This document shows positions 56,470 to 64,000 of a stretch of DNA of 64,000 bases, piece after piece. Position 1 is the first letter of the stretch. Every line of letters starts with the position of its first letter. The notes under the pieces were generated by a model. The model saw only the letters and a list, made by a program, of their open reading frames with translations. It did no database searches and was not told where the DNA came from. Origin of the DNA: Escherichia coli (GTDB lineage Bacteria; Pseudomonadota; Gammaproteobacteria; Enterobacterales; Enterobacteriaceae); the NCBI RefSeq assembly GCF_050920415.1, contig NZ_CP169309.1. One strand, 5' to 3'. Both the position numbers and the translations under genes were made by a program.

Positions 56470-57387
56470 ATGCTTATCTTTATCCCGATTCTCATTTTTG
56501 TCGCGCTGGTCATTGTTGGCGCGGGCGTCAAAATCGTGCCGCAGGGCTATCAGTGGACAGTAGAACGTTTTGGTCGCTATACCAAAACGTTACAGCCAGG
56601 GCTAAGTCTGGTGGTGCCGTTTATGGATCGCATTGGTCGCAAGATCAATATGATGGAGCAAGTGCTCGATATCCCTTCCCAGGAAGTTATCTCGAAAGAT
56701 AACGCCAACGTTACCATCGACGCCGTGTGCTTTATTCAGGTGATTGATGCCCCGCGCGCGGCTTATGAAGTCAGCAATCTGGAGCTGGCGATCATCAATC
56801 TGACCATGACTAACATCCGTACCGTACTGGGTTCAATGGAACTTGACGAAATGCTCTCCCAGCGCGACAGCATCAACTCACGCCTGCTGCGTATTGTCGA
56901 TGAGGCCACCAACCCGTGGGGGATTAAAGTCACCCGTATTGAAATTCGCGACGTGCGCCCACCGGCAGAGCTTATCTCTTCAATGAACGCGCAGATGAAA
57001 GCGGAACGTACCAAACGCGCTTACATCCTTGAAGCGGAAGGGATCCGTCAGGCGGAAATCCTCAAAGCCGAAGGTGAAAAACAGTCGCAAATCCTGAAAG
57101 CGGAAGGTGAGCGTCAGTCGGCATTTTTGCAAGCTGAAGCGCGTGAACGTTCCGCCGAAGCAGAAGCCCGTGCCACTAAAATGGTGTCGGAAGCCATCGC
57201 CTCTGGTGATATTCAGGCAGTGAACTACTTCGTCGCACAGAAATACACCGAAGCGTTACAGCAGATCGGTTCATCCAGTAACAGCAAAGTAGTGATGATG
57301 CCATTAGAGGCCAGCAGCCTGATGGGGTCGATTGCCGGGATTGCCGAGCTGGTGAAAGACAGCGCCAACAAACGGACTCAGCCATGA
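56470..57387 (+). CDS. qmcA: SPFH/band-7 (stomatin-like) membrane protein
   Basis: 305 aa with N-terminal TM segment and SPFH domain. Confidence 0.9.
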
Positions 57388-57842
57388 TGGAGTTAATGGT
57401 CGTTCATCCACATATTTTCTGGCTCAGTCTCGGCGGGTTGTTGCTGGCAGCCGAGATGTTGGGCGGAAATGGTTATCTGTTGTGGAGCGGCGTGGCAGCG
57501 GTGATTACCGGCCTGGTGGTCTGGCTGGTGCCGCTGGGTTGGGAGTGGCAAGGGGTGATGTTTGCCGTCCTGACGCTGCTCGCCGCCTGGTTGTGGTGGA
57601 AATGGCTGGCACGAGGCGTGCGCGAACAAAAGCACAGTGACAGTCATTTAAACCAGCGCGGGCAGCAGCTTATTGGCCGACGTTTTGTGCTGGAATCTCC
57701 GCTGGTCAACGGGCGCGGTCATATGCGCGTCGGTGACAGTTCATGGCCTGTCAGCGCCAGCGAGGATCTCGGCGCAGGTACGCATGTTGAGGTGATTGCG
57801 ATAGAAGGGATAACGCTGATTATCCGTGCGGTCATCGCCTGA
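57384..57842 (+). CDS. ybbJ: NfeD-like membrane protein partner of QmcA
   Basis: 152 aa; 4-nt overlap with qmcA. Confidence 0.85.
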
Positions 57843-57920
57843 CGCGTCTTATCACACCCGGAAATCTGTACTAAAAATCATGCCGGATAAGGCGTTTACG
57901 CCGCATCCGGCATATAGCCG
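57843..57920. repeat. REP-type palindromic repeat
   Basis: gccggataaggcgtttacgccgcatccggc palindromic unit. Confidence 0.5.
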
Positions 57921-57933
57921 AGTAGTGGCAAAA

Positions 57934-58296
57934 TTACTCTTCCCGGCCTTTCCCCATACTTTTTTGGTCTTCATCCGGATAGTGTTTTTTTAGATATTCC
58001 AGGACGTTTTTATTGACCTTGTGTTGCGTATACACCCACCCTTTCCAGTAATCAGGCTGGTCCAGATAAACTTCTGGCGGAATGGTGAAATCAGAAAGCG
58101 TTAACCATTCGGCTAACAGATCGGGGTTTCGCTTCTGGATCAACTGCAACAGCATGATCAGCGACATGGCAGAGGCAGGAGCCGTACTATCGCCACTTAA
58201 ATATTTCCACACCGTTGATCGGTTCGAACGAAAAAGGATGGGAAGCAGCGCCCGGTCCAGATTCATTTCATTAAAAATCTTCTCAAATTCATTCAT
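57934..58296 (-). CDS. Hypothetical protein, 120 aa
   Basis: ORF divergent from the adhesin-like gene, with a 365 bp AT-rich shared upstream region. Confidence 0.5.
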   Translation of the reverse strand: MNEFEKIFNEMNLDRALLPILFRSNRSTVWKYLSGDSTAPASAMSLIMLLQLIQKRNPDLLAEWLTLSDFTIPPEVYLDQPDYWKGWVYTQHKVNKNVLEYLKKHYPDEDQKSMGKGREE

Positions 58297-58661
58297 TTAA
58301 TTTTCCTGCCTGGCGTAAACCTCTTAAAAATTGAGATTTATCAAAGAAACGCATTTTAGCACACATCAGGAACTGCTTCACGTTTAGTCCAGAAACAGAA
58401 TTTATTTCGCTTATCAAAACAAGTCTTTACTCTTTTTTACATTGAAAGAGCACGAAATGATTTCCTTTTTTATTTATATGAGAAACCATTTTTGTTTCTT
58501 ATTGATGGCGTTTACGCTTACACCAGACAAAAATGCGCTTTACATCACACAAATGGCGGCGTAGATTTCGATTAAATTGCAACGTAGTTTATTTCTTAAA
58601 ACAATATTATTTGTTTCTTATAGAAACATTAATGCGACTTATTTTGAACAAGAGAAAATGA

Positions 58662-59678
58662 ATGAAAACTGTAAACGTAGCTTTACTGGCACTCATAATT
58701 TCAGCAACATCCAGCCCTATTGTTTTAGCTGGTGATACCATTGAAGCGGCGGCAACAGAGCTTTCAGCCATTAACTCTGGCATGTCGCAATCGGAGATTG
58801 AGCAGAAGATTACCCGCTTTTTAGAACGCACCGACAACAGCCCCGCTGCATATACCTATTTGACTGAACATCACTACATCCCTTCTGAAACACCTGATAC
58901 CACTCTGACTCCCCCTGTCCAGACAGATCCTGACGCAGGACAAAAAACCGTTGCCGCTACAGGTGATGTACAGACAACCGCCCGTTATCAGAGCATGATC
59001 AACGCCCGACAGTCTGCGGTAACTGATGCCCAGCAAACGCAAATTACAGAGCAACAGGCGCAGATCGTAGCCACACAAAAAACGCTCGCCGCGACTGGAG
59101 ATACGCAAAATACCGCGCATTATCAGGAGATGATTAATGCCAGGCTGGCGGCTCAAAATGAGGCTAATCAGCGCACTACCACTGAACAAGGGCAGAAAAT
59201 GAATGCGCTGACAACCGATGTGGCAGCACAACAGCAATATGAAAGGACTCAATACGATAAACAAATGCAAAGTCTGGCGCAGAAGTCTGTCCAGGCACAT
59301 GAGCAAATTGAAAGTCTGAGACAAGATTCCGCACAAACGCAGCAACAGTTAACCAACACCCAAAACCGGGTCGCTGATAACAGCCAGCAAATTAACACGC
59401 TCAATAACCATTTCGATTCGCTGAAAAACGAAGTTGAGGACAATCGTAAAGAAGCCAATGCGGGAACTGCATCTGCCATCGCTATCGCCTCACAACCACA
59501 GGTGAAAACCGGTGACTTGATGATGGTGTCAGCGGGAGCGGGAACGTTCAACGGTGAATCTGCGGTGTCTGTAGGAACATCTTTTAATGCCGGAACGCAT
59601 ACGGTACTTAAAGCAGGTATTTCTGCGGATACACAATCTGATTTCGGTACGGGTGTCGGCGTGGGATATTCGTTCTAA
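58662..59678 (+). CDS. Small trimeric-autotransporter-like protein (signal peptide, Q-rich coiled-coil stalk, YadA-type C-terminal anchor)
   Basis: Signal peptide MKTVNVALLALIISATSSPIVLA; internal tandem motif KT(V/L)AATGD.Q.TA.YQ.MINAR twice; C-terminus ...EANAGTASAIAIASQPQ...MVSAGAGTF.GESAVSVGTSF...GVGVGYSF matches the YadA anchor pattern. Confidence 0.7.
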   Translation: MKTVNVALLALIISATSSPIVLAGDTIEAAATELSAINSGMSQSEIEQKITRFLERTDNSPAAYTYLTEHHYIPSETPDTTLTPPVQTDPDAGQKTVAATGDVQTTARYQSMINARQSAVTDAQQTQITEQQAQIVATQKTLAATGDTQNTAHYQEMINARLAAQNEANQRTTTEQGQKMNALTTDVAAQQQYERTQYDKQMQSLAQKSVQAHEQIESLRQDSAQTQQQLTNTQNRVADNSQQINTLNNHFDSLKNEVEDNRKEANAGTASAIAIASQPQVKTGDLMMVSAGAGTFNGESAVSVGTSFNAGTHTVLKAGISADTQSDFGTGVGVGYSF

Positions 59679-59731
59679 TTTTAACAGCAATTTCTTATTC
59701 GCAATTTTCCGTACATTATTTAAGGTTAACA

Positions 59732-60154
59732 ATGATGAATAGCTCCATTAAATCGTTTTCCCTGCTGGCGGTTATATTACTGGCTGGCTGTAGTTCACCC
59801 ACTTCCCGCATCGCAGATTGCCAGGCGCAGGGCGTCAGTCATGATACCTGTTATCTCGCAGAACAACAGCGTCAGACGGCTATTTTAAGTGCATCCGAGG
59901 CGCAGGCATTTAAAAATGCAGAAGCCGCACAACATGCCCAGGCGGCAAAGAAAGCCATTTATAAAGGATTTGGCATGACCTTTAGAATGAGCAGTAAGAA
60001 CTTTGCTTATCTCAATGATTCATTATGTGCAATTGATGAAGACAATAAAGATGCCACTGTTTATCAGTCAGGTCTTTATAACGTCATTGTTTATCACCAC
60101 ACGGGAAAAGTCGCCTTAATGAAGGAAGGTCAGTTTGTGGGTTATTTAAAATGA
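59732..60154 (+). CDS. Lipoprotein, 140 aa
   Basis: Signal peptide with lipobox LLAGC; AAGG RBS. Confidence 0.65.
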   Translation: MMNSSIKSFSLLAVILLAGCSSPTSRIADCQAQGVSHDTCYLAEQQRQTAILSASEAQAFKNAEAAQHAQAAKKAIYKGFGMTFRMSSKNFAYLNDSLCAIDEDNKDATVYQSGLYNVIVYHHTGKVALMKEGQFVGYLK

Positions 60155-60357
60155 AGGAGCAAAGGAAAATCCCCCTGACGCATATTATGATTATCGGTGC
60201 GTTTATTTTTGCCTTCTTACAAGTGGTGTTATTAGCCTCCCTGGTTCACGCTGTGAATGTTAACAACGAAATCCAGGAAGGCTTATTTCAGTCGGGGCGC
60301 ATTATGGTAGAAAGTTTGCAGCATATTCTGTCTGTGCAACCGGTGATTAACGGGTAA
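60151..60357 (+). CDS. Small membrane protein, 68 aa
   Basis: ATGA overlap with the lipoprotein gene; single hydrophobic helix IMIIGAFIFAFLQVVLLASLV. Confidence 0.45.
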   Translation: MKEQRKIPLTHIMIIGAFIFAFLQVVLLASLVHAVNVNNEIQEGLFQSGRIMVESLQHILSVQPVING

Positions 60358-60445
60358 GAGCACCGCTTCCATTTATAGAGCAATAGTCACCAGCGTAATT
60401 TTCTGGCACAGTTCAGGGAACTGAAATTTTGGCTAAGGAGTGGCC

Positions 60446-61669
60446 ATGCTTTTTCCCTTTCGAAAACCTGAAGTACGTCTGCTGAAAAATACCGCTGCGG
60501 GCGTCATTTTTTCGGTGAAGTCAGGTAAAGGATTTCTGCGTCAATGTGTGATTTACGATCCGCACCCTTATGGGCTTATCCGTTCGCTCTGCTGGCAGGA
60601 TGTCCCGTTAATACGTTTCTGGTCCGAGGCTGGCTGCCCCACCTGTGCGGAATTTGTCTACAGCGGTTTTGCGGATGATGAACAGGGAGCCGCCCGGTTT
60701 TTGTCTGCTCTCGAAAACTGGAATCGCCCGTGGTCTGGCATGACGGACGCTTTTGCCGCGCTGACACCGCTGTTCTCATGCATGGCTGATGGCTATTATC
60801 TGCTCGAAGATCGTGAACTTTACCCGACGGATGGCAACGGGCATTTCTTTTGGGCGGCAACGGACCATAGCGCCAGTAATCCGGCGACCGTTGCCGTCTG
60901 GGATCCTGAATATTGCTATTTCAGTGACACCGCCCCCTGTTTTCTTCTACCCGGCCAGCCGCCATCACATTTTAATCCTGAGCGTGCGACGTTTTATCGC
61001 GATAAACCGGACGCCCGCGCTCTGGCCTGGTATCTCCCTGATTCCTATCTCTGCGTTCTGCTCGACGGACACCATAAAGCAACAGCCGCCGCGCTGGAAG
61101 GGCGACCGCTCAAAACACTGGTGCTCAGCACGGCAACCCATTTTAATGATGAGCAACAAACCCTGGTATTTCCGGGCGGAGAATGTCTGCACAAAACAGA
61201 GCTACTGTGCCAGGTTCCCAAACTCACTGAGTGGAAAACATTACCGCCCGGCGCATGGGAGAGTTTCGGCCCTGATAAGCACATCAGCCCATCCGAAACC
61301 TGGTCAGAAGAGTTGCAGCAGAGCGTCAGTCGGTACCCTTCACTGGATCAAGCCTGGCAAATTGTTGAGGCCGGGAATTTGAGCGAAGCTCGTATTAAGC
61401 GCATGATCCAACAAGGTTTGGAGGGGGATGAAAAGGCTGATGTTATTTTGCAGGCACTGTTTTCCACATACTCGCCGCTTTTTGTTGACTTTGCTCGATT
61501 CGTTATCAGCCATCCGGCATACGCCATTTATCGCCCTCTCACCTTCCGGTTGATGGCGCAAAACCGAACGCCGCAAGCAGATGCTTTTTTTCTGGATTTT
61601 GCCATCAATGATGACGGCGAACGTCCGGAGTTGACGAAAATAATGGACGACTATTTTCGCAAGCCTTAA
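60446..61669 (+). CDS. Hypothetical protein, about 407 aa
   Basis: AAGGAG RBS 7 nt upstream of the ATG at 60446 (the ORF track starts at GTG 60440); no recognisable domain; host-like GC. Confidence 0.6.
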   Translation: MLFPFRKPEVRLLKNTAAGVIFSVKSGKGFLRQCVIYDPHPYGLIRSLCWQDVPLIRFWSEAGCPTCAEFVYSGFADDEQGAARFLSALENWNRPWSGMTDAFAALTPLFSCMADGYYLLEDRELYPTDGNGHFFWAATDHSASNPATVAVWDPEYCYFSDTAPCFLLPGQPPSHFNPERATFYRDKPDARALAWYLPDSYLCVLLDGHHKATAAALEGRPLKTLVLSTATHFNDEQQTLVFPGGECLHKTELLCQVPKLTEWKTLPPGAWESFGPDKHISPSETWSEELQQSVSRYPSLDQAWQIVEAGNLSEARIKRMIQQGLEGDEKADVILQALFSTYSPLFVDFARFVISHPAYAIYRPLTFRLMAQNRTPQADAFFLDFAINDDGERPELTKIMDDYFRKP

Positions 61670-62077
61670 TCACCCCGCTCGATGATGACAGCAGCCGGAG
61701 AGATTTTCGATAATTGGGCAGTCGGCGCTGTCATCACCGGGGCAGGCATTCGCCAGCGCCAGTAGCTGGTCGCGCATGGATTGCAGCTCCTCAATGTGCC
61801 GTTCGATCTCCGCTACCTTCTCCAGCGTACGACGTTTGACGTCGGCACTGTGACGCTGCGGATCGTTAAACAGATTCACCAGTTCGCCGCTCTCTTCCAG
61901 GTTAAAGCCCACCTGGCGCGCCTGGCGCAGTAAGGTCAGTTCGTTGAGATGCTGCTGCGTGTAGGTTCGATAACCATTTTCGCTGCGCATCGGCGGCGTC
62001 ACTAGCCCCTTTTCTTCATAGAAGCGAATGGCTTTGCTGGTCAGGCCGGTAATTTTTGCTACATCGCTAATGTTCAT
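61670..62077 (-). CDS. cueR: MerR-family copper-responsive regulator
   Basis: 135 aa starting [26 protein letters not shown] and ending CCHHRAG, recognised CueR sequence. Confidence 0.95.
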
Positions 62078-63249
62078 CGTTCGCGCAACGCCTCCTGTGC
62101 TTTGTTAAAGGGTTTCAACAGATAATCCAGCACGCTTTTTTTGCCGGTGCGGATATCGACCGTCGCCACCATGCCGGGAAATATCGGAAACTGCTGTTTA
62201 TGTTTATTTTCCAGATGGTTGCTGAAAGTGCGAATGTACACCCGATAGTAATAAACATCGCGTCGCACTTCATCCTGCACGGTGTCTGGTGATATCACCG
62301 CCACTTCCCCCGGCAGGCCGCCGTAGATGGAGTAGTCGTAAGCGGTTATTTTCACCAGCGATTTTTGCCCCGGATGGATAAACGCCACATCGCGGGGGGA
62401 GATTTTTGCCTCGATCAACAGTTGCTCATCCAGCGGCACGATAGTCATAAGTTTACCACCGGGGGCGATGACGCCGCCAACCGTGGTGACGTCAATGTCC
62501 TGAACAATGCCTCGCACCGGCGCAGTAAAGTTGAGCCGGGTGAGAGAATCTTCCCGCCCGCGGATCACCGAACGCTGGGTTTCCACTTCCGCATTGGCTT
62601 TCGCTAACTCTTCCCGCGCCTGTACGTAGTATTGCGTACGCACGTCGCTAAGTTTGTTTTCCAGTTCATTGGCCTGGCGTTGCAGGCGCAGCACTTCAAC
62701 GCTGCTCGCCGCCCCCTGTTTCACCAGCGGCTGGGTCATCGCCAGTTCGCGGTTGACCAGGCTGATCCCCTGCGTCAGCCCGGTGGTGGCTTTGTTCAAC
62801 CCGTCGCGGCGAGTGTTATATAACGCCGTTTCCGACTCGATAAGTTCGGGGAATTTATTCAGTTCGTCAGGAAAGACCAGCGGTTTATTGCTCACTTCTG
62901 CCCGCAGCCGCGCCGAGGTTGCCAGCGCCGCATACAGCCGCGACATCGCTTCCTGGACGTCGGATTCCGTTTTGGTGCGGTTAAGCTGCGCCAGCGGCTG
63001 CCCCTGTTCGACAATATCGCCAACCTTCACGTCGAGATGATACAAAATCCCGCCTTCCAGCGACTGCACCACCTGTTCGCGTCCAGAAGGTTCTACCGTG
63101 CCGCTGCCGGTGGTGACTTCATCAAGCTGGAAGTACCACGCCCAGCCGAGAAAACAGAGCAGCATCACAGCGGTAACGCGCACCGCCAGCGCCGAACGTG
63201 GCAGGCGGGGTTCAGTCAGGCCACGGTTGTATTGCAGTTGTCCGTTCAT
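62074..63249 (-). CDS. Type I secretion membrane fusion protein (HlyD family)
   Basis: 391 aa; N-terminal TM segment, long coiled-coil region, C-terminal [23 protein letters not shown] typical of HlyD-family T1SS adaptors. Confidence 0.8.
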
Positions 63250-64000
63250 GCGGCAGACCCCTTATTCTTCTCCTGCAACACCACGCGTCGCGTCGTGGGT
63301 TCGCCCTGTTCACGCAAAATGGTCTCTTTCGCGCCGTCCATCACAATGCGCCCCTGATCCATCACAATTATCCTGTCCACCAGTTGCAGCATTGCCGTGC
63401 GGTGAGTAGCGATGACCAGCGTGCGATGCCCAATCCACTGTTTTAGTTGTTCAATTAAATACGCTTCCGCCATTTCATCCAGCGAGGCACTGGGTTCATC
63501 GAGCAGGACGATATTGGGTTGAGAGATGAGCAGCCGCGCCAGCAGCAGCGTTTGCCGCTGGCCGCCAGAAAGACCAAATCCCCCTTCCTGAATCATGTAG
63601 TTAAGGCCGTTTTTCTGCTTCTGCACAAACGGCAGCGCCCCGCTGAGGGTCAACGCGCGTTCGATATCTTCATCGCTGGCTTCTGGCATCCCCATGGTGA
63701 GATTTTCCCGCAGCGAACCGAAGAACAGTCGCCCAGTCTGGCTCAGCAGCCCCATGTCGCGGCGCAGATCCGCCGGATCAAGTTGCCCGATGCTGATGTT
63801 ATCCAGCAGCACCTGCCCCTGCTGGGCGATACGCATTCCGGCGAGCATTTGCAGTAGCGTTGATTTACCCGCGCCGTTGCGCCCGAGAATGGCGATTTTC
63901 TCTCCGGCCTGAATGTTGAGTTTGCCGATCGCCACATCGGCAATCTTCTCTTCTTCGTCGTAATAAAACACCGCGTTGCTGAACTGATAATTTCCGTGCA
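63246..64000 (-). CDS. Type I secretion ABC transporter, C-terminal ATPase part (5' end outside the window)
   Basis: Walker A GRNGAGKST, signature LSGGQRQ, Walker B LLDEPSASLD; 4-nt overlap with the MFP gene start. Confidence 0.8.
   Translation of the reverse strand, partial: HGNYQFSNAVFYYDEEEKIADVAIGKLNIQAGEKIAILGRNGAGKSTLLQMLAGMRIAQQGQVLLDNISIGQLDPADLRRDMGLLSQTGRLFFGSLRENLTMGMPEASDEDIERALTLSGALPFVQKQKNGLNYMIQEGGFGLSGGQRQTLLLARLLISQPNIVLLDEPSASLDEMAEAYLIEQLKQWIGHRTLVIATHRTAMLQLVDRIIVMDQGRIVMDGAKETILREQGEPTTRRVVLQEKNKGSAA

What the first reader, a model, noticed from the sequence alone, without database searches (positions are those of the whole stretch)
57934..61669. Adhesin-like gene cluster separating ybbJ from cueR
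K-12, as I recall it, has cueR directly next to ybbJ. Here 3.8 kb intervene, encoding a divergent 120 aa protein, a small trimeric-autotransporter-like protein, a lipoprotein, a 68 aa membrane protein (ATGA-coupled to the lipoprotein gene) and a 407 aa protein of unknown function. An autotransporter paired with a lipoprotein recalls the Salmonella sadBA arrangement, though the gene order differs. GC content is host-like, so this may be an old island lost from K-12 rather than a recent acquisition.
Basis: partly seen in the sequence, partly recalled or inferred. Interest (0 to 1): 0.6.

Follow-up and report, generated by a model that had tools for sequence, protein, structure and literature searches.

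The report
Known E. coli O-island 29 adhesin module
The 3.8 kb between ybbJ and cueR is the already catalogued O-island 29 of pathogenic E. coli (a small regulator, a short trimeric surface-fibre protein and a lipoprotein partner) plus a separate old cytoplasmic gene. The one real surprise is that the fibre protein is published as a DNA-binding motility regulator called GmrA.

Summary
All five ORFs lie at the stated coordinates, and in K-12 ybbJ abuts cueR. The interval is not new. It holds two independent cassettes.

1. O-island 29 of O157:H7 (S-loop 43 of Sakai), at 57934-60357, is present in 1416 of 5426 complete E. coli genomes. It has a 120-aa XRE-type helix-turn-helix gene. That gene is divergent from an operon of a 338-aa headless trimeric autotransporter (YadA anchor, E 1.5e-11), a 140-aa lipoprotein and a 68-aa single-pass membrane protein.

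2. A 407-aa cytoplasmic protein (60446-61669) has an invariant DGHH motif and a ParB/sulfiredoxin-like core. It occurs at the same junction in E. albertii and is unrelated to adhesion.

The autotransporter-then-lipoprotein order recurs in 13 of 24 loci from other species. This supports a functional pair analogous to SadBA. The lipoprotein is not detectably homologous to SadB, is encoded downstream, and is predicted to go to the outer membrane.

E. whittamii and Escherichia sp. E1V33 have the same gene order, so the arrangement is old. The module's GC is 43.6%, which is not host-like.

The parts
57843..57933 (.). Spacer after ybbJ that carries a REP palindrome (57880-57913). The left boundary of the module indel lies just after it.
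   Evidence: Inverted repeat I2, 16-nt arms, 88% complementary. Sub-threshold Rfam naRNA4 (REP-derived) match at 57881-57939, E 2e-4. The same sequence follows ybbJ in ATCC 25922, which lacks the module.
57934..58296 (-). [not shown]
58297..58661 (.). AT-rich (31% GC) divergent intergenic region, the presumed promoter and operator region.
   Evidence: GC. A 37-nt direct repeat in two copies 70% identical (58469-58505 and 58588-58624); the copies share the stretch TTTGTTTCTTAT. One promoter-like site at 58539-58567, which is no more than chance gives.
58662..59678 (+). [not shown]
   Evidence: Pfam YadA_anchor at residues 279-338, E 1.5e-11. phmmer matches to the AtaA, Hia and related anchors in the PDB. 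PHROG adhesin family, E 4.5e-21. Hydrophobic N-terminal signal-like segment and C-terminal ...GYSF. 95% identical to the O157:H7 protein. The gmrA deletion primers flank exactly this CDS.
59732..60154 (+). [not shown]
   Evidence: Sequence. Family alignment A3. Only 152 representatives in 1.84 billion proteins. An autotransporter lies directly upstream in 13 of 24 species loci. No PDB relative, SadB included.
60151..60357 (+). 68-aa single-pass membrane protein, translationally coupled to the lipoprotein gene by an ATGA overlap.
   Evidence: Hydrophobic segment at residues 14-32, KD 2.65. Homologues with the same 4-bp overlap occur in Pseudocitrobacter, E. whittamii and Escherichia sp. E1V33. 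None was found beyond these genera.
60446..61669 (+). 407-aa cytoplasmic protein of an uncharacterised family, forming a separate cassette. It has an N-terminal beta domain with CPTC, a ParB/sulfiredoxin-like core with invariant DGHH, and a C-terminal helical repeat.

Best explanation
The ybbJ-cueR interval holds two unrelated accessory cassettes at a known polymorphic site.

Cassette 1 (57934-60357) is O-island 29. A small XRE-type helix-turn-helix protein is transcribed divergently from an operon. The first gene of that operon encodes a short, headless trimeric autotransporter.

The autotransporter is inferred to work as follows:
- Sec exports it.
- Three copies contribute four beta-strands each to a 12-stranded outer-membrane barrel.
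- They display a Gln/Ala/Thr-rich coiled-coil stalk of about 250 residues on the cell surface.

The downstream lipoprotein is predicted to go to the outer membrane. Together with the coupled 68-aa inner-membrane protein in Escherichia and Pseudocitrobacter, it is inferred to act in the periplasm as a dedicated partner of the fibre, in assembly, stability or anchoring. This role is analogous to SadB or TpgA, but there is no evidence of homology. The helix-turn-helix protein is inferred to control the operon from the AT-rich intergenic region.

Cassette 2 (60446-61669) is a stand-alone cytoplasmic protein with a ParB/sulfiredoxin-like, probably nucleotide-dependent, core. It has sat next to cueR since before E. 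coli and E. albertii diverged.

What is shown: gene content, family assignments, distribution and synteny. What is inferred: surface display, the helper role and the regulatory link.
For: Identity with OI-29:
- O157:H7 has the same four genes at the same site.
- The autotransporter is 95% identical to the O157:H7 protein.
- The published deletion primers map onto these genes.

Autotransporter:
- YadA_anchor, E 1.5e-11.
- Alignment to the solved AtaA and Hia anchors.
- Signal-like N-terminus.

Helix-turn-helix protein:

Linkage:
- The full module occurs at other loci in Pseudocitrobacter.
- Autotransporter plus lipoprotein occur together in Enterobacter asburiae.
- Of 24 species-representative loci with a full-length lipoprotein, 13 have a YadA-anchor ORF directly upstream on the same strand. 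These span Escherichia, Pseudocitrobacter, Rahnella, Yersinia, Pantoea, Ewingella, Enterobacter and Lelliottia.
- Eight of those 13 also have a divergent relative of the 120-aa protein.

Two cassettes:
- ATCC 25922 and E. albertii carry only the 407-aa gene.
- O157 carries only the module.
- The module is an indel inside the ybbJ-407 spacer.
- The Salmonella homologue of the 407-aa protein lies at rihA|hscC, and the Clostridia homologues have no conserved neighbours.
Against: - No head domain or known adhesive domain is detectable in the passenger.
- About half of the lipoprotein relatives (11 of 24 loci) have no autotransporter within 6 kb, so the lipoprotein can function without one encoded nearby.
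- The 68-aa protein is confined to two genera.
- The helix-turn-helix model has only moderate confidence (mean pLDDT 68).
Confidence: 0.72

Rival explanations
1. The 338-aa protein is what the literature says it is. On this reading GmrA is a cytoplasmic transcriptional activator that binds the fliA promoter and raises flagellar synthesis, and the autotransporter-like features are incidental.
For: PMC5826968 reports:
- Deleting gmrA lowers motility, flagella number and fliA/fliC/motA expression.
- A plasmid carrying gmrA complements the defect.
- His-tagged protein shifts a fliA promoter fragment but not flhD or rpoS fragments.
- ChIP-qPCR shows enrichment.
- The same phenotype is seen in eight strains.
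- Deleting OI-29 does not change adherence.

A weak Pfam hit to TMF_DNA_bd (E 0.088, residues 203-252) shows how a database could flag a 'DNA-binding domain' in the coiled coil.
Against: - The protein has a Sec-type N-terminus and a full-length YadA anchor (E 1.5e-11). The anchor aligns to solved autotransporter barrels and ends in an aromatic residue.
- The TMF_DNA_bd hit is not significant. It lies among many other coiled-coil hits such as SMC, ATG16 and JetC.
- Relatives in other genera are longer autotransporters with the same N- and C-termini.
- A motility effect could be indirect, for example through envelope stress or surface drag.
- No searchable paper discusses both 'GmrA' and 'trimeric autotransporter'.
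Confidence: 0.15
2. The lipoprotein and the 68-aa protein are not helpers of the autotransporter. They are an independent envelope function that merely travels with it, for example a stress or peptidoglycan-associated factor linked to the neighbouring qmcA-ybbJ membrane-quality genes.
For: - 11 of 24 lipoprotein loci lack an adjacent autotransporter.
- In Serratia silvae the helix-turn-helix gene is divergent from the lipoprotein alone, directly upstream of qmcA.
- The module lies next to qmcA-ybbJ in Pseudocitrobacter, Serratia and Symbiopectobacterium as well as in Escherichia.
- Relatives that have only the C-terminal domain and an ordinary signal peptide exist.
Against: - Autotransporters are rare genes, yet one lies directly upstream on the same strand in 13 of 24 loci. 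These loci come from three families of Enterobacterales and have unrelated chromosomal contexts.
- SadB likewise has a paralogue, YajI, that is not linked to any autotransporter (PMC3953254).
Confidence: 0.3
3. The whole interval is a recent horizontally acquired pathogenicity islet, gained several times independently by pathogenic lineages, as Yang et al. proposed. On this view the K-12 state is simply ancestral.
For: - Module GC is 43.6%, against 54-57% in the flanks.
- The distribution is patchy: 1416 of 5426 genomes.
- In Serratia and Pseudocitrobacter, ybbJ and cueR abut as in K-12.
- The K-12-type ybbJ 3' end is a distinct, diverged haplotype with 11 of 30 nt different.
Against: - E. whittamii and Escherichia sp. 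E1V33 have exactly the window's order, with 93-99% identical neighbours.
- E. albertii has the 407-aa gene at the same junction.
- K-12-type genomes keep a 98-bp remnant of the HlyD gene beyond cueR, so they have lost DNA here.
- The module lies in the same fetA-cueR neighbourhood in other genera.
- No integrase, tRNA or flanking direct repeats are present. Only a REP element marks the boundary.
Confidence: 0.2

Closest known systems
O-island 29 of E. coli O157:H7 EDL933 (z0638-z0639/gmrA-z0640), equal to S-loop 43 of Sakai (ECs0548, 'Saa-like protein')
   Same: Same site between ybbJ and cueR, same four genes and same order. The autotransporter is 95% identical. The published primers map to these genes.
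   Different: The window also carries the 407-aa gene between the module and cueR, which O157:H7 lacks. That combination covers at least 80% of the interval in 162 of 5426 genomes.
SadB-SadA of Salmonella, and its counterpart UpaG/EhaG in E. coli (Grin et al. 2014, PMC3953254)
   Same: A trimeric autotransporter is co-transcribed with a small lipoprotein restricted to Enterobacterales. The pair is lost together in K-12. The lipoprotein family also has members that are not linked to autotransporters.
   Different: - There is no detectable sequence similarity to SadB (PDB searches).
- The lipoprotein gene is downstream, not upstream.
- Position +2 is Ser, which predicts the outer membrane. SadB has Asp and stays in the inner membrane.
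- The lipoprotein is 140 aa. Mature lipidated SadB is about 24.4 kDa (PMC3953254), roughly 215 aa.
- An extra coupled 68-aa membrane protein is present.
- The autotransporter is short and headless, whereas SadA is a very long fibre.
- The chromosomal locus is different.
Short YadA-anchor proteins such as the Eib proteins and Saa of E. coli, and the phage-borne 'adhesin' family PHROG 17426
   Same: A C-terminal YadA anchor preceded by a coiled-coil stalk. The best PHROG match is E 4.5e-21 over residues 100-338. Ogura et al. 2007 called the protein 'Saa-like'.
   Different: No YadA head, neck or Hep_Hag repeats were detected. It is chromosomal, not on a prophage or plasmid. It has its own conserved N-terminal domain of about 50 residues, shared with the Pseudocitrobacter relative.
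ParB/sulfiredoxin-fold nucleotide-dependent enzymes (ParB/KorB/Noc CTPases, free serine kinases SerK and SbnI, sulfiredoxin), compared with the 407-aa protein only
   Different: No Pfam ParBc match in any member and Foldseek is not significant. The N-terminal beta domain with an invariant CPTC and the C-terminal helical repeat are unique to this family. The DGHH is followed by Lys (DGHHK).

Membership tests
Trimeric autotransporter adhesin (type Vc secretion) | C-terminal YadA-like anchor contributing four beta-strands per monomer | tested here: met
   Pfam PF03895 covers model positions 1-60 of 60 at residues 279-338, E 1.5e-11. Aligns to the AtaA, Hia and related anchors, E 4e-7 to 3e-5.
Trimeric autotransporter adhesin (type Vc secretion) | N-terminal Sec signal peptide | tested here: met
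   The sequence starts MKTVNVALLALIISATSSPIVLA|GD. The most hydrophobic 19-mer starts at residue 6 (KD 2.06). This is a heuristic only; no dedicated predictor was available.
Trimeric autotransporter adhesin (type Vc secretion) | Coiled-coil stalk between the N-terminus and the anchor | tested here: inconclusive
   Residues about 100-275 give only coiled-coil-type weak hits (SMC, ATG16, JetC). The passenger is Gln/Ala/Thr-rich and has no Cys or Trp. No trimer model was made.
Trimeric autotransporter adhesin (type Vc secretion) | Adhesive head domain (YadA head, Hep_Hag, Trp-ring, etc.) | tested here: not met
   No head or neck family appears in Pfam even at E <= 10. The protein is 'headless', so adhesin function is not implied by sequence.
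Trimeric autotransporter adhesin (type Vc secretion) | Trimerisation, outer-membrane location and surface exposure | not testable with these tools
   This needs fractionation, heat-modifiability and protease shaving. The published work purified the protein from soluble extracts with an N-terminal tag (PMC5826968).
SadB-type autotransporter export lipoprotein | Homology to SadB/YajI | tested here: not met
   Neither the single sequence nor the family profile matches any PDB chain at E < 0.39 (phmmer) or E < 1.2 (profile). The PDB copy should contain the SadB and YajI structures, but this was not checked.
SadB-type autotransporter export lipoprotein | Inner-membrane retention (Asp at +2) and a gene directly upstream of the autotransporter | tested here: not met
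   The mature N-terminus is C-S-S, and the gene lies 53 bp downstream of the autotransporter. SadB features are taken from PMC3953254.
SadB-type autotransporter export lipoprotein | Conserved operon linkage with an autotransporter across species | tested here: met
   13 of 24 species-representative loci have a YadA-anchor ORF directly upstream on the same strand.
SadB-type autotransporter export lipoprotein | Increases surface display or integrity of the autotransporter | not testable with these tools
   Requires co-expression assays.
O-island 29 of EHEC O157:H7 | Same insertion site, gene set and sequence | tested here: met
XRE/lambda-repressor-like HTH regulators (120-aa protein) | Five-helix HTH fold | tested here: met
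   [not shown]
XRE/lambda-repressor-like HTH regulators (120-aa protein) | Significant sequence-profile match | tested here: inconclusive
   Only MqsA_antitoxin at E 0.12. No NCBIfam hit.
ParB/sulfiredoxin superfamily (407-aa protein) | ParB/Srx core fold with the DGHH(R) nucleotide-site motif | tested here: inconclusive
   [not shown]

The most novel reading that the evidence does not exclude
Two linked claims:

1. The protein published as the transcription factor GmrA is in fact a surface-anchored, headless trimeric autotransporter, and its effect on motility is indirect.

2. Its conserved downstream lipoprotein, together with the 68-aa membrane protein in Escherichia and Pseudocitrobacter, is a third, undescribed class of dedicated autotransporter partner after SadB and TpgA.

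Such a partner would have been missed by the 2026 global survey, because that survey only considered autotransporters with a YadA head domain (bioRxiv 10.64898/2026.01.22.700529).
Probability: 0.3. Interest if true: 0.55.

Novelty: already known. Interest (0 to 1): 0.33.

Why it matters
The island itself adds nothing new. It has been catalogued since the O157:H7 genome papers and is annotated in RefSeq. Three things make it worth a short note.

1. Published function against sequence. Several reviews (PMC8565820, PMC10877973, PMC9387321) cite GmrA or z0639, and the two read here describe it as a DNA-binding activator. Its sequence has the defining features of an outer-membrane autotransporter. 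The only protein in the island with a helix-turn-helix fold is a different gene. If the sequence reading is right, the regulatory model for EHEC motility needs revisiting.

2. A candidate third helper system. The recurrent autotransporter-lipoprotein pairing in three families of Enterobacterales offers a small, tractable test for a further autotransporter helper system.

3. An uncharacterised protein family. The 407-aa protein defines a family spanning Enterobacteriaceae and Clostridia, with a confident predicted structure and invariant CPTC and DGHH motifs.

Tried and rejected
- **Defence system:** PADLOC gave only coiled-coil noise for the autotransporter and nothing for the other four proteins.
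- **Prophage or mobile-element origin:** there is no integrase, tRNA or flanking direct repeat, and PHROGs matched only autotransporter-like 'adhesin/tail' families. A serine recombinase lies near one Pseudocitrobacter copy only.
- **Lipoprotein as TraV or an XAC1346 chaperone:** the NCBIfam hits (E about 1e-3, far below the curated cut-offs) cover only the signal peptide and Cys motif. Rejected.
- **Lipoprotein C-terminal domain repeated in large proteins:** P0297 and similar hits turned out to be Cys-rich repeats with a chance similarity.
- **Functional link between the 407-aa protein and the adhesin:** rejected, because it occurs alone at this junction, sits elsewhere in Salmonella, and has no conserved neighbours.
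- **Sequence route to ParB:** Pfam found nothing on all 47 family members and neither did a PDB profile search.
- **RNA elements:** Rfam found only a sub-threshold REP-derived match.
- **Tandem repeats in the autotransporter gene:** none found.
- **Promoter scan:** no more sites than chance gives.
- **Clean-excision signature for the K-12 state:** none found. Instead the K-12-type ybbJ 3' end is a diverged haplotype, so the direction of change remains unresolved.


Full report
**1. Observation**

The window between about 55.5 and 64 kb is an E. coli chromosome segment. The gene order is fetB, fetA, qmcA, ybbJ (57384-57842, plus strand), five ORFs, cueR (61670-62077, minus strand), then a type I secretion adaptor and ABC transporter.

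- 120 aa, 57934-58296, minus strand.
- 338 aa, 58662-59678, plus strand.
- 140 aa with an LLAGC lipobox, 59732-60154.
- 68 aa, 60151-60357, starting inside the lipoprotein stop as ATGA.
- 407 aa from the ATG at 60446 to 61669.

A RefSeq genome that is 100% identical over this interval (strain MFDS1022581) annotates the same five CDS. In K-12 MG1655, cueR ends at 514400 and ybbJ begins at 514401.

**2. The region is a known island**

O157:H7 carries the first four genes at the same site. Its 338-aa protein is 95% identical to the window's.

Yang et al. 2018 (PMC5826968) describe O-island 29 as a 2,643-bp island containing z0638, z0639 (gmrA) and z0640. I mapped their lambda-Red homology arms onto the O157:H7 locus:
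- The gmrA arms flank exactly the 338-aa CDS.
- A z0640 arm lies next to the 120-aa gene.
- A z0638 arm lies at the end of the lipoprotein gene.

Ogura et al. 2007 list the Sakai orthologue ECs0548 (S-loop 43) as a 'Saa-like protein' among adhesion genes.

In the collection of 5,426 complete E. coli genomes:
- The four-gene module is found in 1,416, with at least 80% coverage in 1,369.
- Some part of the 407-aa gene is found in 965, with at least 80% coverage in 270.
- The whole interval is covered at 80% or more in 162.

**3. Two cassettes, not one island**

At least five junction states exist:
- Empty, as in K-12.
- The 407-aa gene only, as in ATCC 25922.
- A frameshifted 407-aa pseudogene (strain Ecol_743; O25:H4 strains give the same partial match to the gene).
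- The module only, as in O157:H7.
- Both, as in this window.

The junction sequences show how the module fits in. The ybbJ-407 spacer of ATCC 25922 is shared with the window up to ...GGCATATAGCC, just after a REP palindrome, and again from T(T/C)GGCTAAGGAGT just before the 407-aa start. The module is therefore an indel inside that spacer. The REP is seen as an inverted repeat and as a sub-threshold naRNA4 match.

GC content also separates the two cassettes. The module is 43.6% GC and its intergenic region 31%. The 407-aa gene is 52.5% and the flanks are 54-57%.

**4. The 338-aa protein**

- Pfam gives a full-length YadA_anchor at residues 279-338 (E 1.5e-11) and nothing else significant.
- phmmer aligns residues 244-337 to the solved anchors of AtaA and Hia.
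- The N-terminus is a typical export signal, and the protein ends in ...GVGYSF.
- The passenger is Gln/Ala/Thr-rich without Cys or Trp. It contains an internal repeat, QKT(V/L)AATGD.Q.TA.YQ.MINAR. It gives only coiled-coil-type weak hits.
- No head domain is detectable.
- Relatives next to homologous lipoproteins in Pseudocitrobacter (633 aa) and Enterobacter asburiae (293 aa) share the anchor. The Pseudocitrobacter relative also shares the first 75 residues or so.
- In E. whittamii and Escherichia sp. E1V33 the autotransporter is only 50-75% identical, while its neighbours are 88-100% identical. Fast divergence of this kind is what one would expect of a surface-exposed protein (inference).

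By sequence the protein meets the anchor and signal criteria of a type Vc autotransporter and is 'headless'.

**5. Conflict with the literature**

The same gene is published as GmrA, a transcriptional activator with a 'putative DNA-binding domain' predicted by CDD. The evidence offered is EMSA and ChIP-qPCR on the fliA promoter, motility and flagellation defects in deletion mutants, and complementation. Deleting OI-29 did not change adherence to HeLa or Caco-2 cells.

I cannot see their supplementary figure. The only DNA-binding-named family in my Pfam scan is TMF_DNA_bd, at E 0.088 on the coiled coil. That could be the source of the prediction, but this is speculation.

No searchable paper contains both 'GmrA' and 'trimeric autotransporter'. 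The motility phenotype may be real and indirect. A direct cytoplasmic role is difficult to reconcile with an export signal and a barrel anchor.

**6. The 120-aa protein**

- Its family is small and confined to Enterobacterales.
- An AlphaFold model from 13 sequences is moderate overall (pLDDT 68) but 74-88 over the first 70 residues.
- Relatives lie divergently upstream of the autotransporter in every context examined. In Serratia silvae a relative lies divergently upstream of the lipoprotein alone.

It is the natural candidate regulator of the operon. This is an inference.

**7. The lipoprotein and the 68-aa protein**

- The lipoprotein family has a conserved lipobox, a Cys30/Cys40 pair in the motif C.AQG.S.DTCYLAEQNRQ, and a C-terminal beta-rich domain.
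- It is rare, with 152 representatives among 1.84 billion proteins.
- Neither the sequence nor the profile matches any solved structure, SadB and YajI included.
- I scanned one genome per species with the profile and recovered 51 loci. Of the 24 with a full-length lipoprotein, 13 have a YadA-anchor ORF directly upstream on the same strand. These come from Escherichia, Pseudocitrobacter, Rahnella (three species), Yersinia aleksiciae, Pantoea conspicua, Ewingella, Enterobacter chuandaensis, Lelliottia and two metagenome-assembled genomes.
- The other 11 have no autotransporter within 6 kb.
- The 68-aa protein, always overlapping the lipoprotein stop, was found only in Escherichia and Pseudocitrobacter.

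The pairing is therefore a recurrent operon, analogous to sadBA (PMC3953254). It is not homologous to sadBA, and it differs in gene order and in predicted membrane.

A 2026 survey found only TpgA and SadB as autotransporter helpers. It required a YadA head domain, so headless proteins like this one were outside its scope.

**8. The 407-aa protein**

- No Pfam, NCBIfam, PADLOC or PHROG family matches.
- Homologues occur in E. albertii (90% identity), Salmonella (53%), Superficieibacter and many Clostridia (20-35%).
- C64, T66, D207, G208, H209 and H210 are invariant across the 47 aligned sequences. P65 and C67 are nearly so.
- The model is confident: pLDDT 88, pTM 0.86.
- Foldseek ranks Noc, serine kinase and sulfiredoxin near the top, but not significantly.
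- No family member matches Pfam ParBc.
- The gene has no conserved neighbours. It lies at rihA|hscC in Salmonella and in unrelated contexts in Clostridia.

I read it as a stand-alone cytoplasmic protein with a ParB/sulfiredoxin-like, probably nucleotide-dependent, core. My confidence in that reading is moderate.

**9. Age and direction of change**

- E. albertii has ybbJ-407-cueR.
- E. whittamii and Escherichia sp. E1V33 have exactly the window's order, including the type I secretion genes beyond cueR. The filled state is therefore at least as old as these species splits.
- K-12-type genomes keep a 98-bp remnant of the HlyD gene beyond cueR, so they have lost DNA on that side.
- In Pseudocitrobacter and Serratia silvae the module lies upstream of qmcA, and ybbJ abuts cueR. 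In Symbiopectobacterium a decayed copy likewise lies on the qmcA side, separated from qmcA by a chemoreceptor gene.
- All filled alleles share the ybbJ ending [10 protein letters not shown]-12-type alleles end TLHIRAVSS*, with 11 of 30 nucleotides different.

The empty allele is thus an old, distinct haplotype and not a recent clean excision. I cannot settle which state is ancestral. What the data do exclude is a recent acquisition that is specific to pathogens.

**10. Verdict**

The finding is real but ordinary in kind. It is a catalogued accessory islet plus an adjacent old gene. It is unproven for function, and only analogous to sadBA. The items of residual interest are the GmrA assignment, the candidate lipoprotein partner and the uncharacterised 407-aa family.

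Noticed in passing
window 62074-64000 and beyond (L001 10691-16694): Immediately beyond cueR lie a HlyD-type adaptor, a type I secretion ABC transporter and the giant BapA-related adhesin gene siiEA. The adaptor gene's stop overlaps the cueR start by 4 bp, so cueR looks translationally coupled to the secretion operon. K-12-type genomes retain a 98-bp pseudogene remnant of the adaptor gene.
   Followed up: partly
L007, L008 and L021 (Pseudocitrobacter); L036 (Serratia silvae); L009 (Symbiopectobacterium): In Pseudocitrobacter the homologous module lies between fetA and qmcA. In Serratia silvae a copy without the autotransporter lies directly upstream of qmcA. In Symbiopectobacterium a decayed copy lies on the qmcA side, separated from qmcA by a chemoreceptor gene. 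In Escherichia the module is downstream of ybbJ. The recurring association with the qmcA-ybbJ (SPFH/NfeD) pair is unexplained.
   Followed up: partly
window 57813-57842 versus MG1655 (L017) and L012: The last nine codons of ybbJ differ sharply between filled alleles (TLIIRAVIA*) and K-12-type empty alleles (TLHIRAVSS*). That is 11 of 30 nt, far above the roughly 5% divergence of the surrounding genes.
   Followed up: partly
window 58469-58505 and 58588-58624: A 37-nt direct repeat in two copies, 70% identical and sharing the stretch TTTGTTTCTTAT, lies in the 31% GC divergent intergenic region. It is a candidate operator for the 120-aa helix-turn-helix protein.
   Followed up: no
L003 6001-7239 (Salmonella enterica): The Salmonella homologue of the 407-aa protein (53% identity, a cluster of about 2,700 sequences) sits between rihA and the Hsp70 gene hscC. 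This is another position where, from memory and unchecked, the two flanking genes abut in K-12.
   Followed up: no
L016 2137-3239 (E. coli SCAID WND2-2021) and rows H78-H84: Some E. coli strains have a module 0.4-1.1 kb longer, with an unannotated 1.1-kb gap before a 349-aa YadA-like CDS, or with two YadA-like CDS. This suggests longer or disrupted passenger alleles.
   Followed up: no
L005 3766-5532 (Pseudocitrobacter faecalis): A second copy of the module in this species carries an extra 588-aa ORF with no Pfam domain between the autotransporter and the lipoprotein. It lies next to a large serine recombinase, which suggests that this copy is on a mobile element.
   Followed up: no
L030 (record titled Chryseobacterium sp. 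18061): A lipoprotein homologue gives the same match as the one in Enterobacter sp. JUb54 (52% identity to the query over residues 14-140), yet its record is labelled Chryseobacterium. This probably reflects contamination or mislabelling of the assembly.
   Followed up: no
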